In this document: positions 19,500 to 32,000 of the stretch, in pieces
Layout: each line of letters starts with the position of its first letter
How positions within the stretch are numbered: the stretch's first letter is position 1
Made by a program: the position numbers and the translations under genes
Notes under the pieces: model-generated
Told to the model about the DNA's origin: nothing
Database searches by the model: none
The model's input: only the letters and a program-made list of their open reading frames with translations
DNA from: Pseudomonas aeruginosa
Lineage (GTDB): Bacteria > Pseudomonadota > Gammaproteobacteria > Pseudomonadales > Pseudomonadaceae
Assembly (NCBI RefSeq): GCF_001457615.1
Contig: NZ_LN831024.1
Span: 2,370,001-2,402,000, forward strand
Direction of reading: 5' to 3'
DNA length: 32,000 nt

Positions 19500-21422
19500 A
19501 TGCCCATCATTACTCTTCCCGACGGCAGTCAACGTTCCTTCGATCACCCGGTCTCCGTGGCCGAGGTGGCCCAATCCATCGGCGCGGGCCTGGCCAAGGC
19601 GACCCTCGCCGGCAAGGTCGACGGCCGCCTGGTCGACGCCTGCGACACCATCGATCGCGACGCGACCCTGCAGATCATCACGCCCAAGGACGAGGAAGGA
19701 CTGGAGATCATCCGCCACTCCTGCGCCCACCTGGTCGGCCATGCGGTCAAGCAGCTCTATCCGACCGCGAAGATGGTCATCGGCCCGGTGATCGAGGAAG
19801 GCTTCTACTACGACATCTTCTTCGAGCGCCCCTTCACCCCCGAGGACATGGCGGCGATCCAGCAGCGCATGCGCGAGCTGATCGACAAGGACTACGACGT
19901 GATCAAGAAGATGACCCCGCGCGCCGAGGTCATCGAGCTGTTCAAGTCCCGTGGCGAAGACTACAAGCTGCGCCTGATCGACGACATGCCGGACGAGAAG
20001 GCCATGGGCCTGTACTTCCATGAGGAGTACGTGGACATGTGCCGCGGCCCGCACGTGCCGAACACTCGCTTCCTCAAGGCGTTCCAGCTGACCAAGATTT
20101 CCGGCGCCTACTGGCGCGGCGACTCGAAGAACGAGCAGTTGCAACGCATCTACGGCACCGCCTGGGCCGACAAGAAGCAACTGGCGGCCTACATCCAGCG
20201 CATCGAAGAGGCCGAGAAGCGCGACCATCGCCGCATCGGCAAGCAGCTCGACCTGTTCCACCTGCAGGAAGAAGCGCCGGGCATGGTGTTCTGGCACCCG
20301 AATGGCTGGAGCGTCTACCAGGTGCTCGAGCAGTACATGCGCAAGGTCCAGCGCGACCATGGCTATGTCGAAGTGCGTACCCCGCAGGTGGTCGACCGCA
20401 TCCTCTGGGAGCGTTCGGGCCACTGGTCGAACTACGCCGAGAACATGTTCACCACCTCCTCGGAAAGCCGCGACTACGCGGTCAAGCCGATGAACTGCCC
20501 GTGCCACGTGCAGATCTTCAACCAGGGCCTGAAGTCCTATCGCGACCTGCCGCTGCGCCTCGCCGAGTTCGGCGCCTGCCACCGCAACGAGCCGTCCGGC
20601 GCGCTGCACGGGATCATGCGCGTACGCGGCTTCACCCAGGACGACGCGCATATCTTCTGCACCGAAGAGCAGGTGAAGAAGGAAGCGGCCGATTTCATCA
20701 AGCTGACCTTGCAGGTCTACCGCGACTTCGGTTTCACCGACATCGCCATGAAGCTGTCGACCCGTCCGGCCAAGCGCGTCGGTTCCGACGAGCTGTGGGA
20801 TCGCGCCGAAGGCGCGCTGGCCGATGCGCTGAACGAATCCGGCCTGGCCTGGGAATACCAGCCGGGCGAGGGCGCGTTCTACGGGCCGAAGATCGAGTTC
20901 ACCCTGAAGGACTGCCTCGGCCGTAACTGGCAGTGCGGCACCCTGCAGTACGACCCGAACCTGCCGGAGCGCCTGGACGCCAGCTACATCGCCGAGGACA
21001 ACAACCGCAAGCGCCCGGTGATGCTGCACCGTGCGATCCTCGGGTCCTTCGAGCGCTTCATCGGCATGCTCATCGAGCACTACGCCGGAGCCTTCCCGGC
21101 CTGGCTGGCGCCGACCCAGGCAGTGGTGATGAACATCACCGACAAGCAGGCCGATTTCGCCGCCGAGGTGGTGCGGATCCTCGGGGAAAGCGGATTCCGT
21201 GCCAAGTCCGACTTGAGAAACGAGAAGATCGGCTTTAAAATCCGCGAGCATACTTTGCTCAAGGTTCCCTATCTCTTGGTTATTGGAGATCGGGAAGTTG
21301 AATCGAAGGCCGTCGCGGTGCGTACGCGCGAAGGGGAAGACCTGGGCTCCATGCCCGTCACCCAGTTCGCTGAGCTGTTGGCACAGGCGGTTTCCCGGCG
21401 TGGTCGCCAAGACTCGGAGTAA
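19500..21422 (+). CDS. thrS: Threonine--tRNA ligase
   Basis: Belongs to ORF 19467..21422. The ATG at 19500 follows GGAGAGGAGG. The product starts [20 protein letters not shown] (TGS domain) and has class II aaRS motifs throughout. Confidence 0.97.
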
Positions 21423-21424
21423 TC

Positions 21425-21973
21425 ATTATTAAGCGTGAAATGAGACAGGATAAGCGAGCTCAACCGAAACCCCCGATCAACGAGAACATCTCGGCTCGTG
21501 AGGTACGGTTGATTGGAGCTGATGGCCAGCAGGTTGGTGTTGTTTCGATCGATGAGGCGATCCGCCTAGCCGAAGAGGCGAAGCTGGACCTGGTTGAGAT
21601 TTCGGCCGACGCGGTGCCTCCTGTCTGCCGCATCATGGACTACGGCAAGCACCTGTTCGAGAAGAAGAAGCAGGCTGCGGTCGCCAAGAAGAACCAGAAG
21701 CAGGCGCAGGTCAAAGAAATCAAGTTTCGTCCAGGGACGGAAGAAGGGGATTACCAGGTAAAACTACGCAACCTGGTACGTTTCCTTAGTGAAGGGGACA
21801 AGGCCAAGGTATCCCTGCGATTCCGCGGCCGTGAGATGGCTCACCAGGAGCTGGGGATGGAGCTGTTGAAGCGGGTCGAAGCCGACCTCGTGGAGTACGG
21901 CACCGTCGAGCAGCATCCTAAGCTGGAAGGACGCCAGCTGATGATGGTCATCGCTCCCAAGAAGAAAAAGTAA
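21425..21973 (+). CDS. infC: Translation initiation factor IF-3 (start ambiguous: ATT 21425/21428 or ATG 21440)
   Basis: The ORF from ATG 21440 is collinear with E. coli IF3 (EVRLIG...[12 protein letters not shown]...). In-frame ATT ATT AAG lies directly after the thrS stop, 5-8 nt from GGAG (21416-21419), matching the conserved AUU start of infC. Confidence 0.93.
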
Positions 21974-22034
21974 CCACCAGGGCACTGGCAGGCCTTGCGG
22001 TTATGCGTAATCACTCAATGCGGAGTATCCGAAC

Positions 22035-22229
22035 ATGCCAAAGATGAAGACCAAAAGTGGCGCGGCCAAGCGCTTCAAGAAGACTGCTGGTGGCCTCAAG
22101 CACAAGCACGCCTTCAAGAGCCACATCCTGACCAAGATGACCACCAAGCGTAAGCGTCAACTGCGCGGCACCTCGATGCTGAACAAGTCTGACGTTGCGC
22201 GCGTAGAACGCTCCCTGCGTCTGCGCTGA
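22035..22229 (+). CDS. rpmI: 50S ribosomal protein L35
   Basis: 64-aa [23 protein letters not shown]... Confidence 0.96.
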
Positions 22230-22252
22230 TTATTAAGGTAGAGGATTAATTC

Positions 22253-22609
22253 ATGGCTCGTGTTAAGCGTGGCGTTATCGCCCGTCGTCGTCACAAGAAA
22301 ATTCTGAAGCTCGCCAAGGGCTACTACGGTGCACGCTCGCGCGTGTTCCGCGTTGCCAAGCAGGCGGTGATCAAGGCTGGCCAATACGCCTACCGTGACC
22401 GTCGTCAGCGCAAGCGTCAGTTCCGCGCACTGTGGATCGCCCGTATCAACGCTGGTGCTCGTCAGAACGGTCTGTCCTACAGCCGCCTGATCGCCGGCCT
22501 GAAAAAGGCGGCCATCGAGATCGACCGTAAGGTCCTGGCCGATCTGGCAGTGAACGAAAAAGCGGCGTTTACCGCGATTGTCGAGAAAGCGAAGGCAAGC
22601 TTGGCTTAA
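22253..22609 (+). CDS. rplT: 50S ribosomal protein L20
   Basis: 118-aa [33 protein letters not shown]... Confidence 0.96.
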
Positions 22610-22657
22610 GCCCTACGACAATCACCGGACTTCGGTCCGGACGTAACGTCACCGATA

Positions 22658-23723
<1,066 letters not shown>

Positions 23724-23757
23724 GCCAGAACGCAACCGGATTCCTTAGGAGAACAGG

Positions 23758-26136
23758 ATGAAATTCAGTGAAAAGTGGCTGCGGAGCTGGGCAAATCCGC
23801 AGGTTTCCCATGACGAGCTGGTCGCTCGCCTGTCCATGGTCGGCCTCGAGGTCGACGCCGACCTGCCGGTCGCCGGCGCCTTCAGCGGCGTGGTGGTCGG
23901 TGAGGTGCTCTCGACCGAACAGCATCCGGACGCCGACAAGCTGCGCGTCTGCCAGGTCAGCAACGGCAGCGAGACCTTCCAGGTCGTCTGCGGTGCGCCC
24001 AACGTGCGCGCGGGCCTGAAGATTCCCTTCGCCATGATCGGCGCCGAACTGCCGGGCGACTTCAAGATCAAGAAAGCCAAGCTGCGCGGCGTCGAGTCCT
24101 TCGGCATGCTCTGCTCGGCCAAGGAATTGCAGATCAGCGAAGAGAACGCCGGTCTGCTCGAGCTGCCGGCCGACGCGCCGGTCGGCCAGGACGTCCGCAC
24201 CTACCTGGAGCTGGACGACTACACCATCGAGGTCGGCCTGACCCCGAACCGCGGTGACTGCCTGTCGCTCGCCGGCCTGGCCCGCGAAGTCAGCGCCATC
24301 TACGACGTACCGCTGGCGCCGGTGGCGGTGGACGCGGTCGCCGCGCAGCACGACGAGACCCGTCCGGTCGAACTCGCCGCGCCGGCTGCCTGCCCGCGCT
24401 ACCTCGGCCGGGTGATCCGCAACGTCGACCTGAGCCGGCCGACCCCGTTGTGGATGGTCGAGCGCCTGCGCCGTTCCGACATCCGCAGCATCGACCCGGT
24501 GGTCGACGTCACCAACTACGTGATGATCGAACTGGGCCAGCCGATGCATGCCTTCGACCTTGCCGAGATCAACGGCGGCGTGCGCGTGCGCATGGCCGAG
24601 GACGGCGAGAAGCTGGTCCTGCTCGACGGCCAGGAAATCACCCTGCGCACCGACACCCTGGTGATCGCCGACCACCAGCGCGCCCTGGCCATCGCCGGGG
24701 TGATGGGCGGCGAGCACAGCGGTGTCAGCGACAGCACCCGCGACCTGTTCCTCGAAGCCGCGTTCTTCGACACCATCGCCCTGGCCGGCAAGGCCCGCTC
24801 CTATGGCCTGCACACCGACTCCTCGCACCGCTTCGAGCGCGGCGTCGACAGCCAGTTGGCGCGCAAGGCCATGGAGCGCGCGACGCGCCTGATCCTCGAC
24901 ATCGTCGGCGGCGAGCCGGGGCCGATCGTCGAGCAGGTCAGCGAAGCGCACCTGCCGAAGGTCGCGCCGATCACCCTGCGCGCCGAGCGTGTGACCCAGA
25001 TGCTCGGCATGCCGCTGGACGCCGCCGAGATCGTGCGCCTGCTGCAAGCCCTGGAGCTGACGGTGGTAGCCGACGGGGAAGGGCAGTGGTCAGTCGGCGT
25101 ACCGAGCCATCGCTTCGACATTTCCCTGGAAGTCGACCTGATCGAGGAACTGGCCCGTCTCTACGGCTACAACCGCCTGCCGGTGCGCTACCCGCAGGCG
25201 CGCCTGGCGCCGAACAACAAGCCGGAAGCGCGCGCCGCGCTGCCGCTGCTGCGGCGCCTGCTGGTCGCCCGCGGCTACCAGGAAGCGATCACCTTCAGCT
25301 TCATCGATCCGGCCCTGTTCGAACTGTTCGATCCGGGCACCCAGCCGCTGACCCTGGCCAACCCGATCTCCGCCGACATGGCGGCGATGCGTTCCAGCCT
25401 CTGGCCGGGCCTGGTCAAGGCGCTGCAGCACAACCTCAACCGCCAGCAGTCGCGGGTCCGCCTGTTCGAAAGCGGCCTGCGCTTCGTCGGTCAACTGGAA
25501 GGCCTGAAGCAGGAAGCCATGCTCGCCGGCGCCATCTGCGGCAAGCGCCTGCCGGAAGGCTGGGCCAATGGCCGTGACGGCGTGGACTTCTTCGACGCCA
25601 AAGCCGATGTCGAGGCAGTGCTGGCCAGTGCCGGCGCCCTCGGCGACTTCAGCTTCGTGCCCGGCGAGCACCCGGCGCTGCACCCGGGGCAGACCGCACG
25701 CATCGAGCGGGAAGGGCGGCTGGTCGGCTACCTGGGTGCGCTGCATCCGGAACTGGCGAAGAAACTCGACCTCGAGCAGCCGGTGTTCCTCTTCGAGCTG
25801 CTGTTGGCCGAAGTGGTCGACGGTCACCTGCCGAAGTTCCGCGAGCTGTCACGCTTCCCCGAAGTGCGCCGCGACCTGGCGCTGTTGGTGGACCAGGACG
25901 TGCCGGCACAAGACATCCTGACACAAATCCGTGCGGCGGCCGGCGAATGGCTGACGGACCTCAGGCTGTTTGATGTGTATCACGGTAAAGGCATTGATCC
26001 GCATAGAAAAAGCCTTGCCGTCGGCTTGACCTGGCAGCATCCATCGCGCACTCTTAATGACGATGAAGTCAATAGCACGACGCAGAACATCGTCACGTCG
26101 TTGGAAGAAAGGTTCAATGCCACGTTAAGGAAATAG
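23758..26136 (+). CDS. pheT: Phenylalanine--tRNA ligase beta subunit
   Basis: 792-aa ORF starting MKFSEKWLRSWANP... with a tRNA-binding domain and B3/4, B5 and FDX-ACB layout. Confidence 0.97.
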   Translation: MKFSEKWLRSWANPQVSHDELVARLSMVGLEVDADLPVAGAFSGVVVGEVLSTEQHPDADKLRVCQVSNGSETFQVVCGAPNVRAGLKIPFAMIGAELPGDFKIKKAKLRGVESFGMLCSAKELQISEENAGLLELPADAPVGQDVRTYLELDDYTIEVGLTPNRGDCLSLAGLAREVSAIYDVPLAPVAVDAVAAQHDETRPVELAAPAACPRYLGRVIRNVDLSRPTPLWMVERLRRSDIRSIDPVVDVTNYVMIELGQPMHAFDLAEINGGVRVRMAEDGEKLVLLDGQEITLRTDTLVIADHQRALAIAGVMGGEHSGVSDSTRDLFLEAAFFDTIALAGKARSYGLHTDSSHRFERGVDSQLARKAMERATRLILDIVGGEPGPIVEQVSEAHLPKVAPITLRAERVTQMLGMPLDAAEIVRLLQALELTVVADGEGQWSVGVPSHRFDISLEVDLIEELARLYGYNRLPVRYPQARLAPNNKPEARAALPLLRRLLVARGYQEAITFSFIDPALFELFDPGTQPLTLANPISADMAAMRSSLWPGLVKALQHNLNRQQSRVRLFESGLRFVGQLEGLKQEAMLAGAICGKRLPEGWANGRDGVDFFDAKADVEAVLASAGALGDFSFVPGEHPALHPGQTARIEREGRLVGYLGALHPELAKKLDLEQPVFLFELLLAEVVDGHLPKFRELSRFPEVRRDLALLVDQDVPAQDILTQIRAAAGEWLTDLRLFDVYHGKGIDPHRKSLAVGLTWQHPSRTLNDDEVNSTTQNIVTSLEERFNATLRK

Positions 26137-26139
26137 CGT

Positions 26140-26442
26140 ATGGGGGCTCTGACGAAAGCTGAAATTGCGGAACGTCTGTACGAAGAGCTGGGCCTGAACA
26201 AACGGGAAGCCAAGGAGTTGGTGGAGCTGTTCTTCGAAGAGATCCGCCAGGCGCTGGAGCACAACGAGCAGGTCAAGTTGTCCGGTTTCGGCAACTTCGA
26301 CCTGCGCGACAAGCGCCAGCGCCCCGGACGCAACCCGAAGACCGGCGAAGAAATCCCGATCACGGCCCGCCGCGTTGTCACCTTTCGTCCAGGGCAGAAA
26401 CTGAAGGCCAGGGTTGAGGCATATGCTGGAACCAAGTCATAA
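26140..26442 (+). CDS. ihfA: Integration host factor alpha subunit
   Basis: 100-aa [39 protein letters not shown]...[26 protein letters not shown]. Confidence 0.96.
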
Positions 26443-26779
26443 CGACGAGCTGCCACCGATTCCCGGCAAGCGCTACTTCACCATCGGCGAAGTCAGCGAC
26501 TTGTGCGCGGTCAAGCCCCACGTGCTGCGCTACTGGGAGCAGGAGTTCCCGCAGCTCAACCCGGTGAAGCGCCGCGGAAACCGCCGCTATTATCAGCGCC
26601 AGGACGTGCTGATGATCCGCCAGATCCGCGCGCTCCTCTACGACCAGGGCTTCACCATCGGCGGGGCGCGCCAGCGCCTCTCCGGCGACGAGGCCAAGGA
26701 CGACGTCACCCAGTACAAACAGCTCATCCGCCAGATGATCGCCGAGCTGGAGGAAGTCCTGCTGGTCCTGAAGAAGTGA
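26423..26779 (+). CDS. MerR-family transcriptional regulator
   Basis: Belongs to ORF 26414..26779; the ATG is at 26423. It has a MerR HTH ([28 protein letters not shown]...[12 protein letters not shown]). It overlaps the ihfA 3' end by 20 nt. Confidence 0.85.
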
Positions 26780-26868
26780 CGGAAGCAAAAAAAAACTTCC
26801 ACTTATCAGAAGCTTAGTATATAGTGCGGCTCACTTCGGAAGCACAGTCACTGAGCTTGGAAGTACAG

Positions 26869-26946
<78 letters not shown>

Positions 26947-26960
26947 AAAAACCCTAAAAA

Positions 26961-26992
26961 ATCCAGTCACTTAACGGTGACTGGATTTTTTA
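26961..26992 (+). terminator. Rho-independent terminator after tRNA-Pro
   Basis: 10-bp stem ATCCAGTCAC (26961-26970) / GTGACTGGAT (26977-26986) followed by TTTTTT. An A-tract precedes the stem. Confidence 0.8.
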
Positions 26993-27129
26993 TGCAGGGC
27001 GTTTTCCGTTGCTAATTCGAATTTGCCTATTTTGGTTGCCAATTGAGACTGCCTTCATGCCACATCATTCGAGCGTGTTGCTGAGGGAGTGTGGGTGGCG
27101 GATTTCAAGGTGGTTGTTGCGTGAGTGTG

Positions 27130-27459
27130 TCACGCTGCGTTTGATGTTTGCTTTAGTACCATATCCAACTCCGGGTTCAGGTACGTGATTGGTGCCAGCG
27201 GCCAATTCCTGATGTTGCCGCTCCAGCGCTCCGGCTGTCGTGCGTGCGCCACCTCATACAGATCGATACGTCTTTTCAGCAGTTTTTCCGCCTGGCCGGC
27301 ATGTCGCTGCGCCGGGGTCACGAACTTCAGTGCTCTGTGGCGGTGCTGGTGGTTGTACCAGTCCACGAAACGGTTTGCCCAGATCTTGGCTTGCTCGAGC
27401 ATATCGAAGGGCCGCTCCGGCCACAGTGGGCAGTACATGACCGTGCGGAATAGGCTTTG
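27130..27459 (-). mobile_element. Truncated IS3-family transposase (OrfB/rve C-terminal ~110 codons only)
   Basis: Product ...QSLFRTVMYCPLWPERPFDMLEQAKIWANRFVDWYNHQHRHRALKFVTPAQRHAGQ...RQPERWSGNIRNW matches the C-terminal end of IS3-family integrase-core transposases. An in-frame stop lies at 27460-27462, and no catalytic DDE region or OrfA is present. Confidence 0.75.
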
Positions 27460-27485
27460 TCATTGCTTGCCCGGGGGCGGCTGAA

Positions 27486-27725
27486 CTAGGGCATCACGCC
27501 CGGGTTCTGTATGGCATGCCAGCATGGTCGAGCCCTTCCCTGATCGACATACCCCGCTCGAAGCCATTTGCGCAGAATCGCTTTATCCATGGGCGTGTTG
27601 GCGAGCAGCCAGTCGCGGCTGATGTTTTCGAAACAGCCACGAATATCCCCCTCGAGGACCCAATGCGCTGACGCGCTTTGCCTGCGCATGATCGTGATTG
27701 CATGGAGCTTCGTTTCTGAAGTGAT
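27486..27725 (-). pseudogene. Internal fragment (~80 codons) of a group II intron-type reverse transcriptase
   Basis: Product ...KLHAITIMRRQSASAHWVLEGDIRGCFENISRDWLLANTPMDKAILRKWLRAGYVDQG matches the RT motif 2-3 region of bacterial group II intron ORFs. It lacks the N-terminus, the YADD motif, the maturase domain and the intron RNA ends. Confidence 0.7.
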
Positions 27726-27851
27726 CTACAGGCTAAGGCAGGACTCCCTGCGCAGCCCTATCGGTTATGCCTCATGAGAGGCATTTACCCCCGCGCTCAG
27801 AGCTGAGACTATCGATGGCAATATCAACATAGGTTGCAAAAGATTCGATAG

Positions 27852-29657
27852 ATGGCTCTTTCGATAAATGATCTACAGGAAATGACCAGCGGGTTCGCTT
27901 CCACTGGATACGGATGCTCGAGCATTCCTTCCTCGCCGCAGAATCCAGTCATGCTGGAATGGACTGATGATGTGGGCGATTTCAGAAAATTTCGCCTCTG
28001 GGTTTATGAGATTACTCATGGTGGTGGCGGCCGTGACGCAAAGGAAAACCGTATCCAGATTACCAACGCTCCCTCCAAGGGGGATGGTATGGACCATGAC
28101 GGAGCCATTGACCTAGTCATGGGTTATTCGCCGAGTCGGCGTGTTCTGGTGGCCTATGACAGGCGATGGTTGGAGAAGCGCATGGAGAAGGGGGAGGGAT
28201 CCCCGTCGGTCCAGGTAAAAGAGGAGGACATTAACGCGGCGCTGGTTACAGGGATACACCGCGTTACCAAGGATGTTTCCTTCGGCGTGGCCAGCATTGT
28301 GACTCTTAAGCCCGAACTTTTTCCCGAATACCTCAAAAATCATGAGGCCTTGCTATCAGGGGCGATGGCGACAAACAGCGTCCCCCAAATAACTGGAGGC
28401 ACCAACGTGTCACTCTGGCAATTCTGTCTTGATCGGGGCTTCTACTTTGAGCCAGACTTGCTGGCTAGGTATGTCGCATCCATTGCTGCTAAGCCATTTG
28501 TGATCCTGGCCGGTGTTAGCGGCACAGGCAAGTCGAAGATGGCGGAGCTGGTGGCGGAATTCTACTCTTCGACTAGGGAAGTGCTTCCAACTACTAAACC
28601 GGCAGGTCGTGCGCCTGCAGTTGGTGATGCATTTATCTTTGCCCCCGATAAATGCAAAAGCGATAAATCTCGTTTTGCCCTAGTGCCCGTGCGGCCTGAC
28701 TGGATCGACAATCAGTCCATTATCGGTTTTGTGAACCCGATCACCGGAAGATACGAGTCGACTCAAGCTCTAGACCTAATGCTCAGAGCCGCAAAGGCTC
28801 TGGAGGATGCCCCGGAAAAGGCTGCCGCCCCCCGTTATTTCATGCTACTCGATGAGATGAATTTGGCGCGCGTAGAGCACTATTTCAGCGACTGGCTTGC
28901 GTGTGCGGAGAGTAGGCGGTACCAACAAGACGGTGCGATCAGTCAGCAACCCATCCCACTGCATCGACATGCTGCGGCAACTGCCAGCCTCATCGGCCCA
29001 GGCCAGGCCGCTGTGGATGTGGACGTTCCAAATGCTCTACCTATCCCCACCAATCTGATAGTGACTGGTACCGTCAACGTCGACGAAACGACTTTTGGCT
29101 TCAGTCCTAAGGTGCTGGACCGTTCGATGGTGATTGAGTTCAATGACGTTGACTTGGATGGTATGAGGTATGGTGTTGCCGCAGCTGTTCAGAACGGCTA
29201 CCGCTTTCCTGAAGAATTACCGCCGTTCCGTTTACCTACGACCGCTGCGTTTAAGGATTTGTCACAAGAAGCGCATGACCACCTTGTTTCGATAAACCGG
29301 ATTTTGGAAAGGGCACAGCTTCACTTTGGCTACAGATCTGCCTCAGAGATCGGTTGTTTCATGCAGATTTATAGCAGCATCCTCCCTGAGGACGTAAACG
29401 ATACTGCTATGCTCCGAGCACTTGATGGGGCCGTTCTTCAGAAGATCTTGCCGCGTATTCAGGGGAACCGAGCCCGGCTGGAGGAAACTCTTTGCACTCT
29501 GCTTTGGTATTTCCGTGATCTCGCTATGCCCGGATCTGACCAGGACATTCAGACTATCAGGTGCGATGATGCAGCGAAGCTCCCGAAGTCTTATTGCCGT
29601 GGTTTTGAAATGCTGGAACGGTTGCGCGGATTCGGCTTTGTGACCTTTTTCAAGTGA
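27852..29657 (+). CDS. McrB-like AAA+ (AAA_5-type) NTPase with an unrecognised ~190-aa N-terminal domain
   Basis: 601-aa ORF. Walker A is GVSGTGKS (nt 28512-28535) and Walker B is LLDEMN (28845-28862). It has a McrB-type sensor/Arg-finger stretch NLIVTGTVNVDETTFGFSPKVLDRSMVIEF and a C-terminal helical lid (HFGYRSASEI...LDGAVLQKILPRIQG). Composition is lower-GC than the core genome. Confidence 0.85.
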   Translation: MALSINDLQEMTSGFASTGYGCSSIPSSPQNPVMLEWTDDVGDFRKFRLWVYEITHGGGGRDAKENRIQITNAPSKGDGMDHDGAIDLVMGYSPSRRVLVAYDRRWLEKRMEKGEGSPSVQVKEEDINAALVTGIHRVTKDVSFGVASIVTLKPELFPEYLKNHEALLSGAMATNSVPQITGGTNVSLWQFCLDRGFYFEPDLLARYVASIAAKPFVILAGVSGTGKSKMAELVAEFYSSTREVLPTTKPAGRAPAVGDAFIFAPDKCKSDKSRFALVPVRPDWIDNQSIIGFVNPITGRYESTQALDLMLRAAKALEDAPEKAAAPRYFMLLDEMNLARVEHYFSDWLACAESRRYQQDGAISQQPIPLHRHAAATASLIGPGQAAVDVDVPNALPIPTNLIVTGTVNVDETTFGFSPKVLDRSMVIEFNDVDLDGMRYGVAAAVQNGYRFPEELPPFRLPTTAAFKDLSQEAHDHLVSINRILERAQLHFGYRSASEIGCFMQIYSSILPEDVNDTAMLRALDGAVLQKILPRIQGNRARLEETLCTLLWYFRDLAMPGSDQDIQTIRCDDAAKLPKSYCRGFEMLERLRGFGFVTFFK

Positions 29658-31231
29658 GTAAGATTGCATTCGAATACCGCCCTCGGCGCTGCGATGGGTT
29701 GAGCTCAGCTCTTGTCGGGGACGTTGTCGACCTGGCGGAGAACGTCGAGTACGTCATTGAATTCCCGGAGGCGCCGTCTGCTTCGGAAGTTGGTGCACTG
29801 CTTGAAGTGGGCTATGAACCTATCGGTGACAAGATGGGCGTGCTGGCTTTCAAAAACTTTGTAGGGACGGCCCGCTTTGCCGGAGTGACCCTGCGGGTTT
29901 CCTCATCCAAACTCGGCGAGGAAGGGGTTTCTGGCCTGCTCGAGCAGGTATCGCGTTTATCATCGAACTTGGTGTTTGGGTGGCGTTCGCCCGCAGGCTT
30001 TTCCGCGATTGCGTCTGGGGACTCTAAGTCTCCAATTCCGTATCACCAGCTGCAGTTTCTGCGAGAAGTCATCCTTCGGCGGGAGGCAGGACTGCGCCTA
30101 CAAGATTTTTTTGCAGTTGTGGAACGGAATCCGACTCGGAGGTTTGTGTTGGAGCGGCCGGTAGTTCCCGCTGAGCGGGTTCGTAGCTTCGATGCGCGCT
30201 CGGTTACCGATATATTTAATCGGCCAGATCGACTGATTACGGTACGCGAGCACTACGCTGTCGCCGGTAGTCCGTTAGCACGGGCCCTCAAAATTGGGGT
30301 ACCTCCTGTAGAGCATTTTCCAGCGCGGGTATCAGTGTCATCACGGCGACTGTCTTTCGACACCCCCGAGAATCGCTTTGTCAAGCACTTTCTCGGAGAG
30401 TGCTTGACCATCGTATATAAGCTGCTCGATGACCGGAACATCCATATTCAAATGCGCTCCGATTGCCGGGAAATGGCAACCATTCTCGAGACAGCCTCGA
30501 GGTCGCTATTCCTATCAGAGGTCGGTGTTCTAACAGCATTCACTGGCCCTACTCATGCTCTTGCCAAGGTGGAGGGCTACAAGGACATTCTGGATCTTTG
30601 GCTGCAGCTGGGGGCGCATCAGTCCTTGCCCACTTCTGAAAGGGAGGTCCAACGGCTGCTCCAAGGAAAAGATGTCGCGCTGTTGTATGAGTATTGGGTG
30701 TTCCTCAAGGTGCTCGAAGCTGTTTCCTTGGTCATGGGCATCTCAGCTGGCTCTGTAACGGTTTCGCGCAGTGCCCTGGGCGAAGGTCTTGATCGCGGCC
30801 TTGTCGTGCGGCTGTCAGCCAGCGTAGCCGTCGCCTTCAACCCCTCCTACGTCAGGTCGGCTGGGGCCGCTTATTCTACTCCGCTAAGGCCGGACGTCGT
30901 TTTGACCCTCAATGGGGCGCGTTTTGCCTTTGACGCGAAGTATCGATTGCAGTGGCTGACATCGTTGGAGGATGGTCAAGATGATGAGGCTTCATTCGTC
31001 CGCGCTGATCTGTACAAAATGCACACATACCGGGATGCGATCACGGATATGAAGGCTGCCTTTGTGGTTTATCCGGGTACGGAGTTTGTGTTTTTTGAGA
31101 GGGGCGGCGGTCGGCGCCAGTGCCCTGGCGAAATTATGGTGTTCGATGGCGTTGGCGCCATTCCGGCGAGGCCGGATGGCGCCGAGGTATCGATGCTACT
31201 GGATCTGGTGCAGGCGTTACTCGATCAGTGA
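29654..31231 (+). CDS. DUF2357-like / McrC-analogous PD-(D/E)xK nuclease partner
   Basis: 525-aa ORF. Its GTG start overlaps the upstream stop (GTGA at 29654-29657). Motifs are FDTPENRFVKHFL (30356-), LLYEYWVF, LRPDVVLTLNGARFAFDAKYR (D414 at 30893-30895; D427/K429 at 30932-30940) and DLYKMHTYRDAI. Confidence 0.8.
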   Translation: MSKIAFEYRPRRCDGLSSALVGDVVDLAENVEYVIEFPEAPSASEVGALLEVGYEPIGDKMGVLAFKNFVGTARFAGVTLRVSSSKLGEEGVSGLLEQVSRLSSNLVFGWRSPAGFSAIASGDSKSPIPYHQLQFLREVILRREAGLRLQDFFAVVERNPTRRFVLERPVVPAERVRSFDARSVTDIFNRPDRLITVREHYAVAGSPLARALKIGVPPVEHFPARVSVSSRRLSFDTPENRFVKHFLGECLTIVYKLLDDRNIHIQMRSDCREMATILETASRSLFLSEVGVLTAFTGPTHALAKVEGYKDILDLWLQLGAHQSLPTSEREVQRLLQGKDVALLYEYWVFLKVLEAVSLVMGISAGSVTVSRSALGEGLDRGLVVRLSASVAVAFNPSYVRSAGAAYSTPLRPDVVLTLNGARFAFDAKYRLQWLTSLEDGQDDEASFVRADLYKMHTYRDAITDMKAAFVVYPGTEFVFFERGGGRRQCPGEIMVFDGVGAIPARPDGAEVSMLLDLVQALLDQ

Positions 31232-32000
31232 ACCTTGTTCTGGTTGTGACGCTTTCTCCATAAGTTCTCGGATGTCTGAGAAGTCGACAAAAATACTGGC
31301 ATCCGTGGAGGCCAGGCGGCGCATTACTTCCGCATGAATTCCCTGGACGCCGCGGACCGCAAATTGGGGGGTGGTGGCAAGCTCGGCTACTAACGCCGGA
31401 AGGTCGAATGCCTTGGCTGTCTTCCTGGGTGGGGTTGTCTTGACCTTCTCGGGTTTGCGAAGGTTCATCACTACGTCGAAATGGGCGACGTCCTCCTGCC
31501 CGCTGCGACCCTTGTAGCCTTTGTGGCTCTGTTGCTTGCGATCAAGGGATGCCGCCTCATGGAACTCAAAGCCTGCTTCCTTCGCCGCGCTCTGAAGGGC
31601 TGCCCAGACTCCTCCGTCGGTGTTATGGAAGACGACAGTGGCCCAACCGCCCGGTTTAAGTACACGAGCTATCTCGCGCATTGCTCCCGTCATTAGTGCT
31701 TCATACCCAGCCAGTGTCTTACCGCCGGCCGATTCGGCAAGTGATTTGTTGACAACCGCCTCATTGGTTGGGTCCGTGATTCTGCCAAGCCATGACTCCC
31801 AGATCAGGTTGCAGTCGGCGTAAAAAAGGTTCGATCCGAAGGGCGGGTCAGTGAAGACATAGTCAATGCTCCCGTCTTGCACATCTGCAAGGTCGGTGGC
31901 GCTCCCGTTCAAGACAAACGGCATCTGTTCGGCCGTAGGCTGGAAGGTGGCATAGTATCTTTTCAACTGCGCGATCTTGTTGCGCATGACTTCGAAAACG
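31217..32000 (-). CDS. DNA (N6-adenine or N4-cytosine type) methyltransferase, C-terminal part; the ORF stays open to the window edge
   Basis: Motif IV is IDYVFTDPPFG (DPPF at 31838-31849), followed by ARVLKPGGWATVVFHN. No FxGxG AdoMet motif lies downstream of DPPF, so it must lie upstream, beyond 32000. There is no in-frame stop between 31988 and 32000. Its 3' end overlaps the nuclease gene by 15 nt. Confidence 0.8.
   Translation of the reverse strand, partial: VFEVMRNKIAQLKRYYATFQPTAEQMPFVLNGSATDLADVQDGSIDYVFTDPPFGSNLFYADCNLIWESWLGRITDPTNEAVVNKSLAESAGGKTLAGYEALMTGAMREIARVLKPGGWATVVFHNTDGGVWAALQSAAKEAGFEFHEAASLDRKQQSHKGYKGRSGQEDVAHFDVVMNLRKPEKVKTTPPRKTAKAFDLPALVAELATTPQFAVRGVQGIHAEVMRRLASTDASIFVDFSDIRELMEKASQPEQGSLIE

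What the first reader, a model, noticed from the sequence alone, without database searches (positions are those of the whole stretch)
27852..28436. Unrecognised N-terminal domain on the McrB-like NTPase; likely the target-sensing module
In McrB-family enzymes the N-terminal domain is the variable DNA or modification reader, with the AAA+ motor behind it. Here the first ~190 aa precede the Walker A. They include MLEWTDDVGDFRKFRLWVYEITHGGGGRDAKENRIQITN...IDLVMGYSPSRRVLVAYD. I could not match them to a reader fold I know (McrB-N/DUF3578, SRA, YTH/EVE, Mrr-N). The glycine run THGGGGR next to conserved-looking R/K/E positions could be a nucleic-acid or nucleotide pocket. The motor also lacks the McrB NTAD guanine-specificity motif, having VNVDE instead. 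GTP versus ATP usage is therefore open.
Basis: inference. Interest (0 to 1): 0.7.

Follow-up and report, generated by a model that had tools for sequence, protein, structure and literature searches.

The report
MTaX1 domain on methylase-linked McrB motor
The "unrecognised" N-terminal domain is a catalogued but never-tested Pfam family, MTaX1 ("methylase-associated X1"). It sits on a McrBC-like motor-nuclease that always travels with its own large DNA methylase, so it most likely helps the enzyme tell the host's methylated DNA from unmethylated foreign DNA.

Summary
ORF 27852-29657 (601 aa) has a folded N-terminal module of about 175 aa and a linker ahead of Walker A. It contains the quoted THGGGGR and VNVDE strings, and the start codon is supported by conserved homolog N-termini.

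The domain is not unknown. It matches Pfam PF20296 MTaX1 (62.9 bits against a cutoff of 25). The Aravind group has predicted this family to be involved in modified-DNA discrimination. No experiment or solved structure exists. A confident AF2 model (pLDDT 88) has no significant Foldseek match in PDB, and none of the known reader families matches.

Context changes the reading. In all 16 related loci with enough flank, including this window, the same cassette recurs: MTaX1, McrB-like AAA+, McrC-like (DUF2357 + PD-DxK), and a convergent methylase of about 1300 aa with two MTase modules. Distant MTaX1-HNH proteins lie directly downstream of a methylase gene. I therefore read the system as an R-M-type McrBC, like LlaJI and PcaI, rather than a Type IV enzyme. 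MTaX1 is most likely the sensor of methylation state. Docking onto the methylase is the main rival.

VNVDE is the published NxD variant of the McrB signature. That motif is not the guanine determinant. The nucleotide preference is nonetheless untested.

Verdict: a new member of a computationally known, uncharacterised kind, of moderate interest.

The parts
27852..28376 (+). MTaX1 domain (residues 1-175) of the 601-aa protein. The Pfam PF20296 model covers residues 45-161 (nt 27984-28334). The AF2-defined fold also includes the N-terminal helices and a strand (residues 5-26).
   Evidence: - Pfam hit of 62.9 bits against a cutoff of 25.
- AF2 pLDDT 88.3, pTM 0.86.
- The conserved N-terminus in homologs supports ATG 27852.
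28014..28034 (+). THGGGGR glycine-rich hairpin loop (residues 55-61) between strands 44-53 and 65-69. It is followed by the E65-x-R67-x-Q69 strand.
   Evidence: - T55, H56, G57-G60 and R61 are at least 90% conserved in close homologs.
- E65 and Q69 are invariant across all architectures.
- Strand positions come from the AF2 model.
28377..28436 (+). Linker between MTaX1 and the AAA+ core (residues 176-195).
   Evidence: It has lower pLDDT: 59-74, and 181-184 below 50. Its sequence and length vary among homologs.
28437..29657 (+). McrB-like AAA+ NTPase of the NxD clade (residues 196-601).
- Walker A G221-S228 (nt 28512-28535).
- Walker B D334-E335 (nt 28851-28856).
- N409-V-D411-E412 (nt 29076-29087).
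   Evidence: - The motif residues are invariant in the 58-sequence alignment.
- hhalign to E. coli McrB aligns Walker A, Walker B and N409 with N of NTAD, at E 8.6e-4.
- PADLOC PDC-M26A, 2e-37.
- Foldseek top hits are BchI, MCM, dynein, NorQ and RavA, all AAA+.
- The NxD motif is described in PMC11090510.
29654..31231 (+). McrC-like partner (525 aa) with DUF2357 and a PD-(D/E)xK nuclease. Its GTG start overlaps the upstream stop by 4 nt.
   Evidence: - Pfam DUF2357 2.7e-23, PDDEXK_7 3.2e-17, McrBC PF10117 24.2 bits against 23.9.
- A ...RPD...FDAKY... motif is visible in the translation.
- The gene is conserved next to the motor in all related loci.
31217..32000 (-). 3' end of the convergent cognate methylase gene. 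It encodes the C-terminal MTase module with a DPPF motif. The gene runs off the window end.
   Evidence: - 99% identical to residues 1095-1348 of the 1348-aa methylase (HTH_3 plus two N6_N4_Mtase modules) of Pseudomonas paraeruginosa locus L007.
- DPPF motifs at residues 543 and 1145 of that protein.

Best explanation
Residues 1-175 form an MTaX1 domain. It acts as the sensor module of a methylase-linked, McrBC-type restriction system made of four pieces: MTaX1, an NxD-clade McrB-like AAA+ motor, a DUF2357/PD-DxK McrC-like nuclease, and a convergent tandem N6/N4 methylase of about 1300 aa.

Proposed mechanism:
1. The methylase marks host DNA at a fixed target.
2. MTaX1 contacts DNA and reads whether that mark is present. 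It uses the conserved polar face (E65-x-R67-x-Q69, D103, S117-x-S119-x-Q121) next to the Gly-rich THGGGG loop.
3. Only unmarked DNA licenses productive loading of the hexameric motor.
4. NTP-driven translocation then delivers the McrC-like nuclease for cleavage.

What is shown: the domain's identity, its confident fold, the conservation pattern, the conserved four-part cassette, and intact catalytic motifs.

What is inferred: DNA binding by MTaX1, the polarity (unmethylated DNA as the target), the translocation-collision mechanism, and the nucleotide used.
For: **Domain identity**
- Pfam MTaX1 scores 62.9 bits against a cutoff of 25.

**Cassette conservation**
- MTaX1, AAA+ and McrC-like genes facing a large methylase recur in the window, in L001-3 (Vibrio, with MTaX1 as a separate gene), L004, L007, L010-15, L017, L018, L021 and L025.
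- These loci span Pseudomonadota, Acidobacteriota, Gemmatimonadota and Binatia.

**Domain swap**
- A motor that is 60% identical but carries Mrr_N instead of MTaX1 lacks that methylase.

**Simplest architecture**
- In MTaX1 + HNH_2, MTaX1 is the only non-nuclease Pfam domain.
- The gene lies immediately downstream of a methylase gene: it overlaps it in Thiothrix and leaves a 3-nt gap in Roseivivax.

**Nuclease partnership**
- MTaX1 is paired with an effector in most architectures seen, as expected of a specificity module: HNH_2, McrBC-like, or an SF2-helicase/ABC system.
- One copy is fused to a DUF262 protein flanked by HEPN and HNH genes, whose nuclease role I did not establish.

**Conserved residues**
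- Seven positions are invariant across all architectures: P32, E65, Q69, G91, D103, S117 and Q121. E65 and Q69 alternate on one strand, as do S117 and Q121 on another.

**Precedent**
- LlaJI and PcaI are methylase-linked McrBC-like enzymes. Both belong to R-M systems that restrict unmethylated DNA.
Against: - There is no direct evidence that MTaX1 binds DNA.
- The domain is not basic. The median pI is 6.4 in 54 homologs, and this copy has pI 5.4 and net charge -5.
- Foldseek finds no known DNA-binding or reader fold. The best TM-scores, about 0.3, are to RecU-type resolvases and are not significant.
- HNH_2 and McrBC scaffolds are best known from modification-dependent (Type IV) enzymes.
- Some variants add EVE and ScoMcrA_N modules, which are modified-base readers.
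- The methylase has no hypervariable target-recognition segment, with 0.4-0.9 identity in every 50-aa window beyond residue 100. Site specificity could therefore reside in the methylase, with MTaX1 merely docking onto it.
Confidence: 0.55

Rival explanations
1. MTaX1 is a protein-protein adaptor. It docks the motor or nuclease onto the cognate methylase. The methylase supplies DNA-sequence recognition and methylation sensing, as in Type I and Type III enzymes, where the R subunit has no DNA specificity of its own.
For: - MTaX1 co-occurs strictly with a methylase.
- The methylase is the most conserved component, about 60% identical across phyla, and carries an HTH.
- MTaX1 is not basic.
- In L004, two different restriction modules each carry an MTaX1 next to one methylase: the McrBC-like module and an SF2-helicase/ABC module with HTH_17-MTaX1.
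Against: - The partner methylases differ greatly. One type is about 320-360 aa, beta-class, with SPPF. The other is about 1300 aa, tandem, with DPPF.
- The two types share only a stretch of about 39 aa around motif I. A conserved docking surface is therefore not evident.
- One MTaX1 protein (DUF262 fusion, L024) has no annotated methylase beside it, although that gene table is incomplete.
Confidence: 0.22
2. MTaX1 is a classical Type IV-style reader. It binds a modified base, possibly a foreign modification, and triggers cleavage of modified DNA. The neighbouring methylase then serves another role, such as decoy, regulation or addiction.
For: - McrBC is the prototype Type IV system, and HNH_2 is commonly fused to modified-base readers (established knowledge; McrBC described).
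- N-terminal domains swap within this motor clade: Mrr_N in P0258, and EVE/ScoMcrA_N added in P0022 and P0045.
- Three conserved aromatic positions (50, 92, 102) could form a methyl-binding cage.
Against: - A methylation-dependent nuclease that is translationally coupled to a methylase would attack its own host.
- The methylase is retained in every complete cassette, and is lost when MTaX1 is replaced by Mrr_N.
- EVE is added to MTaX1 rather than replacing it, which suggests that the two do different jobs.
Confidence: 0.13
3. MTaX1 is itself an enzyme or a small-molecule or nucleotide sensor. The invariant E, D, Q, S and H residues with the Gly-rich loop would form an active site or nucleotide pocket rather than a DNA-state reader.
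For: - The invariant polar or acidic residues and a GGGG loop are typical of phosphate or nucleotide pockets.
- Weak, non-significant structural resemblance to RecU and NOV-C nuclease-fold proteins.
Against: - MTaX1 is paired with a dedicated nuclease in most architectures seen, which would make a second catalytic domain redundant.
- No Pfam, PDB-sequence or Foldseek match to any enzyme family.
- The order of the acidic residues does not fit the PD-(D/E)xK pattern (reasoned).
Confidence: 0.05

Closest known systems
Pfam PF20296 MTaX1 (methylase-associated X1; Aravind group, cited in PMC10853773)
   Same: - The window domain is a member, at 62.9 bits against a cutoff of 25.
- It shows the same methylase association and the same predicted role in discriminating modified DNA.
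   Different: - The Pfam model covers only residues 45-161, whereas the AF2 fold spans about 1-170.
- The family has no experimental function, structure or specificity.
NxD-clade, methyltransferase-associated McrB-like GTPases (Bell et al. 2024, eLife, PMC11090510)
   Same: - N409-V-D411-E412 is exactly the NxD(+E) signature.
- The partner has DUF2357 + PD-DxK.
- A methyltransferase is adjacent.
   Different: - That paper deferred these systems to a later publication and does not mention MTaX1.
- It describes many NxD methylase-linked systems as having two-component regulators and extra McrC domains. I saw none here.
LlaJI (Lactococcus and H. pylori) and PcaI (Pectobacterium) methylase-linked McrBC-like R-M systems
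   Same: - A McrB-like motor, a McrC-like nuclease and cognate methylase(s).
- LlaJI and PcaI are R-M systems that restrict unmethylated DNA. LlaJI has an asymmetric site and two MTases, which parallels the tandem two-module methylase here.
   Different: - The LlaJI.R1 N-terminal domain is a B3 fold (PMC7680126), and M.PcaI is a Dcm-type C5 methylase.
- Here the N-terminal domain is MTaX1 and the methylase is of N6/N4 type.
- I could not obtain the PcaIA sequence, so I did not test whether it carries MTaX1.
E. coli McrB (DUF3578/ADAM + NxxD GTPase) and T. gammatolerans McrB (YTH + GTPase)
   Same: - Overall layout: an N-terminal specificity domain, a linker and an AAA+ motor, with McrC downstream and translationally coupled.
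- Walker A, Walker B and sensor-1 Asn align.
   Different: - Those are Type IV enzymes with no cognate methylase.
- The N-terminal fold is different.
- NxD replaces NxxD.
- The base-stacking residue after GK[ST] is Lys229 here, not W, F, Y or R.
- Sequence similarity is marginal (hhalign E 8.6e-4, probability 24%).

Membership tests
Pfam PF20296 MTaX1 | Score above the curated gathering threshold of the family HMM | tested here: met
   62.9 bits (domain alone) and 59.8 bits (whole protein) against a cutoff of 25, covering profile positions 1-111 of 111.
Pfam PF20296 MTaX1 | Genomic association with a DNA methylase | tested here: met
   - A convergent methylase of about 1300 aa is present in the window and in every related locus with enough flank.
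- MTaX1-HNH genes lie directly behind a methylase gene.
Pfam PF20296 MTaX1 | Function in discriminating modified from unmodified DNA | not testable with these tools
   This is only a published prediction. No experiment was found in the literature searches.
McrB-like AAA+ GTPase | Walker A, Walker B and the Nx(xx)D signature in place of sensor-1 | tested here: met
   - G221-S228, D334-E335 and N409-x-D411 are all invariant in 58 homologs.
- They align to the E. coli McrB motifs.
- The NxD form is a recognised clade variant.
McrB-like AAA+ GTPase | Operonic McrC partner with DUF2357 + PD-(D/E)xK | tested here: met
   DUF2357 2.7e-23, PDDEXK_7 3.2e-17, and McrBC 24.2 bits against 23.9. The start overlaps the motor's stop by 4 nt.
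McrB-like AAA+ GTPase | Significant sequence or structure similarity to solved McrB | tested here: inconclusive
   - phmmer against PDB found nothing.
- hhalign to EcMcrB gave E 8.6e-4 but a probability of only 23.6%.
- Foldseek on the full-length model hits BchI, MCM, dynein, NorQ and RavA at about 1e-5. McrB is not among the top 50.
McrB-like AAA+ GTPase | Pi-stacking residue (W/F/Y/R) directly after the Walker A GK[ST], and GTP preference | tested here: not met
   - The position is Lys229, invariant in the family.
- Niu et al. state that every McrB homolog has W, F, Y or R there.
- GTP against ATP use itself cannot be tested here.
Known McrB-family reader domains (DUF3578/ADAM, SRA, EVE/YTH/PUA-like, Mrr_N, B3) | Profile or fold match to one of these domains | tested here: not met
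   - No such Pfam hit at E<=1.
- No PDB sequence hit for the single sequence or for the profile.
- Foldseek against PDB gave 0 hits at E<=1e-3.
Methylase-linked McrBC-type R-M systems (LlaJI/PcaI-like) | A cognate methylase encoded with the McrB-like and McrC-like genes | tested here: met
Methylase-linked McrBC-type R-M systems (LlaJI/PcaI-like) | Restriction of unmethylated DNA and protection by the cognate methylation | not testable with these tools
   Inferred from context only. PcaI gives the experimental precedent.

The most novel reading that the evidence does not exclude
MTaX1 is a structurally new kind of DNA-state reader that recognises the unmethylated form of an N4-cytosine or N6-adenine target, an "anti-reader". 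It has a single specificity conserved across phyla together with a TRD-invariant tandem methylase. It can be plugged into HNH, McrBC-like and helicase/ABC effectors to turn them into classical self/non-self R-M systems. The attached NxD/Lys229 motor may use a nucleotide other than GTP.
Probability: 0.3. Interest if true: 0.7.

Novelty: new member of a known kind. Interest (0 to 1): 0.45.

Why it matters
**A known family with no tested function**
- MTaX1 is widespread. The profile search gave 286 clusters at 50% identity, and 112 of the 120 nearest motor homologs carry it.
- It has no tested function, no solved structure and no detectable fold relative in PDB.

**What its activity would explain**
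- It would show how a McrBC motor, the textbook modification-dependent enzyme, is rewired into a methylase-protected R-M system.
- It would also show how one small module is reused with HNH, McrBC-like and helicase/ABC effectors.

**A tractable test case**
- The unusually invariant methylase points to a fixed, easily determined methylation motif.
- The first biochemical look at an NxD-clade McrB motor would come with it.

Tried and rejected
**Searches that found nothing**
- Sequence search of the domain against PDB, as a single sequence and as a 66-sequence profile.
- Foldseek of the confident AF2 model against PDB and BFVD. Nothing was significant. RecU, Holliday-junction-resolvase and NOV-C hits recur at TM about 0.3, which is too weak to call a PD-(D/E)xK fold. 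The order of the conserved acidic residues also does not fit that motif.
- Per-member Pfam scan of diverse MTaX1 sequences for recurrent weak hits. Only MTaX1 itself recurred.
- phmmer of the motor against PDB.
- An Rfam scan of 20000-32000 returned nothing.

**Tools or sources that were unavailable**
The narrower A1 gave only 10 loci.
- Krishnan et al. 2020, the paper cited for MTaX1, is not held, so its description comes second-hand.
- I found no later publication on methylase-associated NxD McrBC systems, and nothing on PDC-M26.

**Ideas rejected**
- A downstream true start at Met34. Residues 1-33 are conserved and are folded in the model.
- The large and small MTaX1-linked methylases as one family with a shared accessory domain. 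They share only a motif-I stretch.
Full report
**1. What is in the sequence**

ORF 27852-29657 (+) encodes a 601-aa protein.
- MLEWTDDV starts at residue 34.
- THGGGGR is residues 55-61.
- IDLVMGYSPSRRVLVAYD is residues 86-103.
- Walker A GVSGTGKS is residues 221-228.
- VNVDE is residues 408-412.

The flagged span, 27852-28436, is residues 1-195 and precedes the AAA+ core.

The start codon is sound. ATG 27852 is the first start after the upstream stop. Homologs from distant phyla begin with the same M-[AV]-L-S-x-x-D sequence and conserve residues 1-33.

**2. The domain has a name**

Pfam assigns residues 45-161 to PF20296, MTaX1 ("Methylase-associated X1"), at E 4.9e-17 and 62.9 bits against a gathering cutoff of 25. 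PADLOC, NCBIfam and PDB sequence searches add nothing for the domain.

[quoted passage not shown] It cites Krishnan et al. 2020 (PMC10853773). That source paper is not in the library. I found no experimental work.

So the "unrecognised domain" is recognised but uncharacterised.

**3. Fold**

With a 66-sequence alignment, AF2 gives a confident model of residues 1-195 (pLDDT 88.3, pTM 0.86). The secondary structure is two short N-terminal helices, five strands (33-38, 44-53, 65-69, 86-93, 98-102), helix 105-113, strand 119-123, helix 124-133, a hairpin (135-142, 145-152), and helices 154-169. A lower-confidence linker follows. The full-length model reproduces this and adds a strand at 20-26.

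Foldseek finds no PDB chain at E<=1e-3. The best TM-score is 0.31, to RecU 1y1o. In BFVD only weak hits appear, again including RecU-type resolvases and a NOV-C domain at TM about 0.3. I do not regard that as a fold assignment.

**4. Family and architectures**

A profile search of 1.84 billion representatives gives 286 clusters at E<=1e-3. A few of these match only the AAA+ columns of the profile, so the count is approximate.

Architectures seen:

| Architecture | Size | Evidence |
|---|---|---|
| MTaX1 + McrB-like AAA+ | about 600 aa | 112 of the 120 closest motor homologs. Found in Pseudomonas (97% identical protein in P. paraeruginosa), P. syringae, Burkholderia, Paraburkholderia and Nitrobacter |
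| MTaX1 as a separate gene upstream of the motor | 178 aa + 420 aa | Vibrio campbellii. A "439-aa" motor is likewise preceded by MTaX1 coding sequence |
| MTaX1 + HNH_2 | about 330-345 aa | Probably the most numerous distant class, judging by the many hits of that length |
| HTH_17 + MTaX1, beside an SF2 helicase, a small protein and an ABC ATPase | 275 aa | |
| ScoMcrA_N + EVE + MTaX1 + AAA+ | 574 aa (frameshifted gene) | |
| MTaX1 at the N-terminus of a DUF262 protein | 521 aa | |

Across all these architectures seven positions are invariant: P32, E65, Q69, G91, D103, S117 and Q121. The T-H-G-G-G loop, R61, R67 and three aromatic positions (50, 92, 102) are nearly so. E65/R67/Q69 alternate along one strand and S117/S119/Q121 along another. 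Their side chains should therefore cluster on one face. That last point is inference from the strand assignment, because I had no coordinates.

**5. Context is the key evidence**

The next gene, 29654-31231, starts 4 nt before the motor's stop. It is McrC-like: DUF2357 2.7e-23, PDDEXK_7 3.2e-17, and PF10117 just above threshold.

Convergent to it, 31217-32000 (-) is the 3' end of a methylase gene. It is 99% identical to residues 1095-1348 of a 1348-aa protein in P. paraeruginosa. That protein has an HTH_3 and two homologous N6_N4 MTase modules, each with a DPPF motif.

tblastn with the four components shows the same cassette in the window and in L001-3, L004, L007, L010-15, L017, L018 and L025. 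A decayed version is present in L021. These loci come from Gammaproteobacteria, Alphaproteobacteria, Acidobacteriota, Gemmatimonadota and Binatia. Of the remaining related loci:
- L016 ends before the methylase position.
- L019 holds only an MTaX1 remnant.

The methylase is the best-conserved part, at 58-61% identity, against 41-51% for MTaX1. It has almost no indels and no hypervariable segment. That suggests one fixed specificity.

A motor that is 60% identical but carries Mrr_N instead of MTaX1 lacks this methylase. This is a single example seen on two contigs.

Independently, the two full-length MTaX1-HNH genes on plasmids lie immediately downstream of a site-specific methylase gene. The genes overlap in Thiothrix and are 3 nt apart in Roseivivax. 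Those methylases are beta-class with SPPF, are 63% identical to each other, and resemble the large methylase only around motif I.

**6. The motor**

Walker A, Walker B (D334-E335), N409, D411, E412 and many other residues are invariant in 58 homologs.

Direct similarity to McrB is marginal:
- phmmer against PDB finds nothing.
- hhalign to E. coli McrB gives E 8.6e-4 and probability 24%. The alignment does place Walker A, DEMN on DEIN, and N409 on the N of NTAD.
- Foldseek with the full-length model (pLDDT 83.7) hits BchI, MCM, dynein, NorQ, ComM and RavA at about 1e-5. These are all AAA+ proteins. McrB is not in the top 50.

The McrB-like label therefore rests mainly on the motifs, the McrC partner and PADLOC PDC-M26A.

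The motif N-V-D-E is exactly the "NxD" variant that Bell et al. 2024 describe. It is "usually followed by a glutamate or a second aspartate". Many NxD GTPases are methyltransferase-associated, and none has been characterised (PMC11090510).

According to Niu et al. 2020:
- Mutating the motif does not change nucleotide preference.
- N acts as sensor-1, and D contacts the McrC Arg/Lys finger.
- Guanine is read by elements upstream of the AAA+ core, plus a pi-stacking residue right after GK[ST]. That residue is W223 in TgMcrB and F209 in EcMcrB, and it is always W, F, Y or R (PMC7680126).

In this family that position is an invariant Lys229.

**7. Mechanism**

A nuclease that always travels with a methylase, and is translationally coupled to it in the minimal form, must spare DNA carrying that mark. 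I therefore read the cassette as an R-M-type McrBC system that attacks unmethylated DNA. LlaJI and PcaI are the precedents.

MTaX1 sits where McrB homologs carry their specificity domain. It is the only non-nuclease Pfam domain in MTaX1-HNH. It is retained when EVE is added. These points make it the best candidate for the module that checks the methylation state (confidence 0.55).

The main rival (0.22) is that MTaX1 docks the effector onto the methylase, which would then do the DNA reading as in Type I and Type III enzymes. Three observations keep this alive:
- The domain is not basic: the median pI is 6.4, and this copy has pI 5.4.
- The methylase is invariant and carries an HTH.
- In L004, two MTaX1-bearing effector modules flank one methylase.

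The dissimilarity of the two methylase types argues against it.

A Type IV reading (0.13) fits the scaffolds but would be suicidal given the linkage. A catalytic or ligand-sensing role (0.05) has no positive support.

**8. Verdict**

It is wrong on three points:
- The domain is not unrecognised.
- The implied Type IV logic does not fit the context.
- NTAD is not a guanine-specificity determinant.

This copy is an ordinary member, 97% identical to an annotated Pseudomonas protein, of a family and a system class that comparative-genomics papers have already noted and nobody has tested. Interest is moderate. It would rise if MTaX1 proves to be a new fold that reads the unmethylated state, or if the NxD/Lys229 motor turns out not to be a GTPase.

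**9. Setting**

The cassette lies in a lower-GC island (0.53-0.56 against about 0.62-0.70 upstream). The island begins after pheS, pheT, an IHF/HU-family gene, a MerR-family gene and tRNA-Pro(GGG) at 26870-26946. An integrase-core (rve_3) remnant sits in between. In P. paraeruginosa the same cassette sits beside other defence genes.

Noticed in passing
window 28536-28538 (Lys229, directly after Walker A GKS): Niu et al. 2020 state that every McrB homolog has a pi-stacking residue (W, F, Y or R) at this position, for example F209 in EcMcrB and W223 in TgMcrB. Here it is Lys, invariant in 58 homologs. Together with the NxD motif, this makes the nucleotide preference genuinely uncertain.
   Followed up: partly
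window 31217-32000 (-); L007:13384-17430 and the equivalent genes in L001, L010-L015, L017: The cognate methylase (HTH_3 plus two homologous N6_N4 modules, DPPF at residues 543 and 1145) is about 60% identical across at least four phyla. It has almost no indels and no hypervariable TRD-like window. That is unusual for R-M methylases and suggests one fixed target.
   Followed up: partly
L004:591-6081 (-), next to the MTaX1-McrB-like gene at L004:6538-8193: A second MTaX1 protein (HTH_17 + MTaX1, 275 aa) heads a divergent operon with an SF2 helicase, a 69-aa protein and an ABC/SMC-like ATPase. Two different effector modules therefore each carry MTaX1 beside one methylase.
   Followed up: partly
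L021:9001-19649: This variant has ScoMcrA_N and EVE added in front of MTaX1. The locus is decaying: the motor gene is frameshifted, the McrC-like gene is split by an IS21-type insertion, and the methylase is split in two.
   Followed up: partly
L008:7001-10254 and L009: A motor 60% identical to the window's carries Mrr_N instead of MTaX1 and lacks the large tandem methylase. A Type III-like Mod/Res pair lies divergently upstream instead.
   Followed up: partly
L024:6004-7569 (Hymenobacter cellulosilyticus plasmid): MTaX1 forms the N-terminus of a DUF262 protein, followed by a HEPN gene and an HNH gene. No methylase is annotated beside it, but the PLSDB gene table is incomplete.
   Followed up: no
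window 26870-27850: - tRNA-Pro(GGG) marks the start of a lower-GC island (0.53-0.56 against about 0.62-0.70).
- Between the tRNA and the cassette lies an integrase-core remnant (rve_3, 27130-27438, - strand).
- A 67-aa ORF (27486-27689, - strand) has no Pfam match. It looks to me like a reverse-transcriptase fragment, from memory only.
   Followed up: partly
window 29654-29657: The McrC-like gene starts at a GTG that overlaps the stop of the MTaX1-McrB-like gene by 4 nt, which suggests translational coupling. The same arrangement occurs in L007.
   Followed up: no
window 20000-32000: The Rfam gathering-threshold scan reported no family at all, not even tRNA, although ARAGORN finds tRNA-Pro at 26870-26946.
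   Followed up: no
L019:10001-10429 and L016:1393-4268: These are degraded copies. L019 is a Gemmatimonadota locus with only a truncated MTaX1 remnant and no motor, nuclease or methylase. L016 is a Bryobacterales locus whose motor gene is interrupted by an insertion of about 1.6 kb.
   Followed up: no
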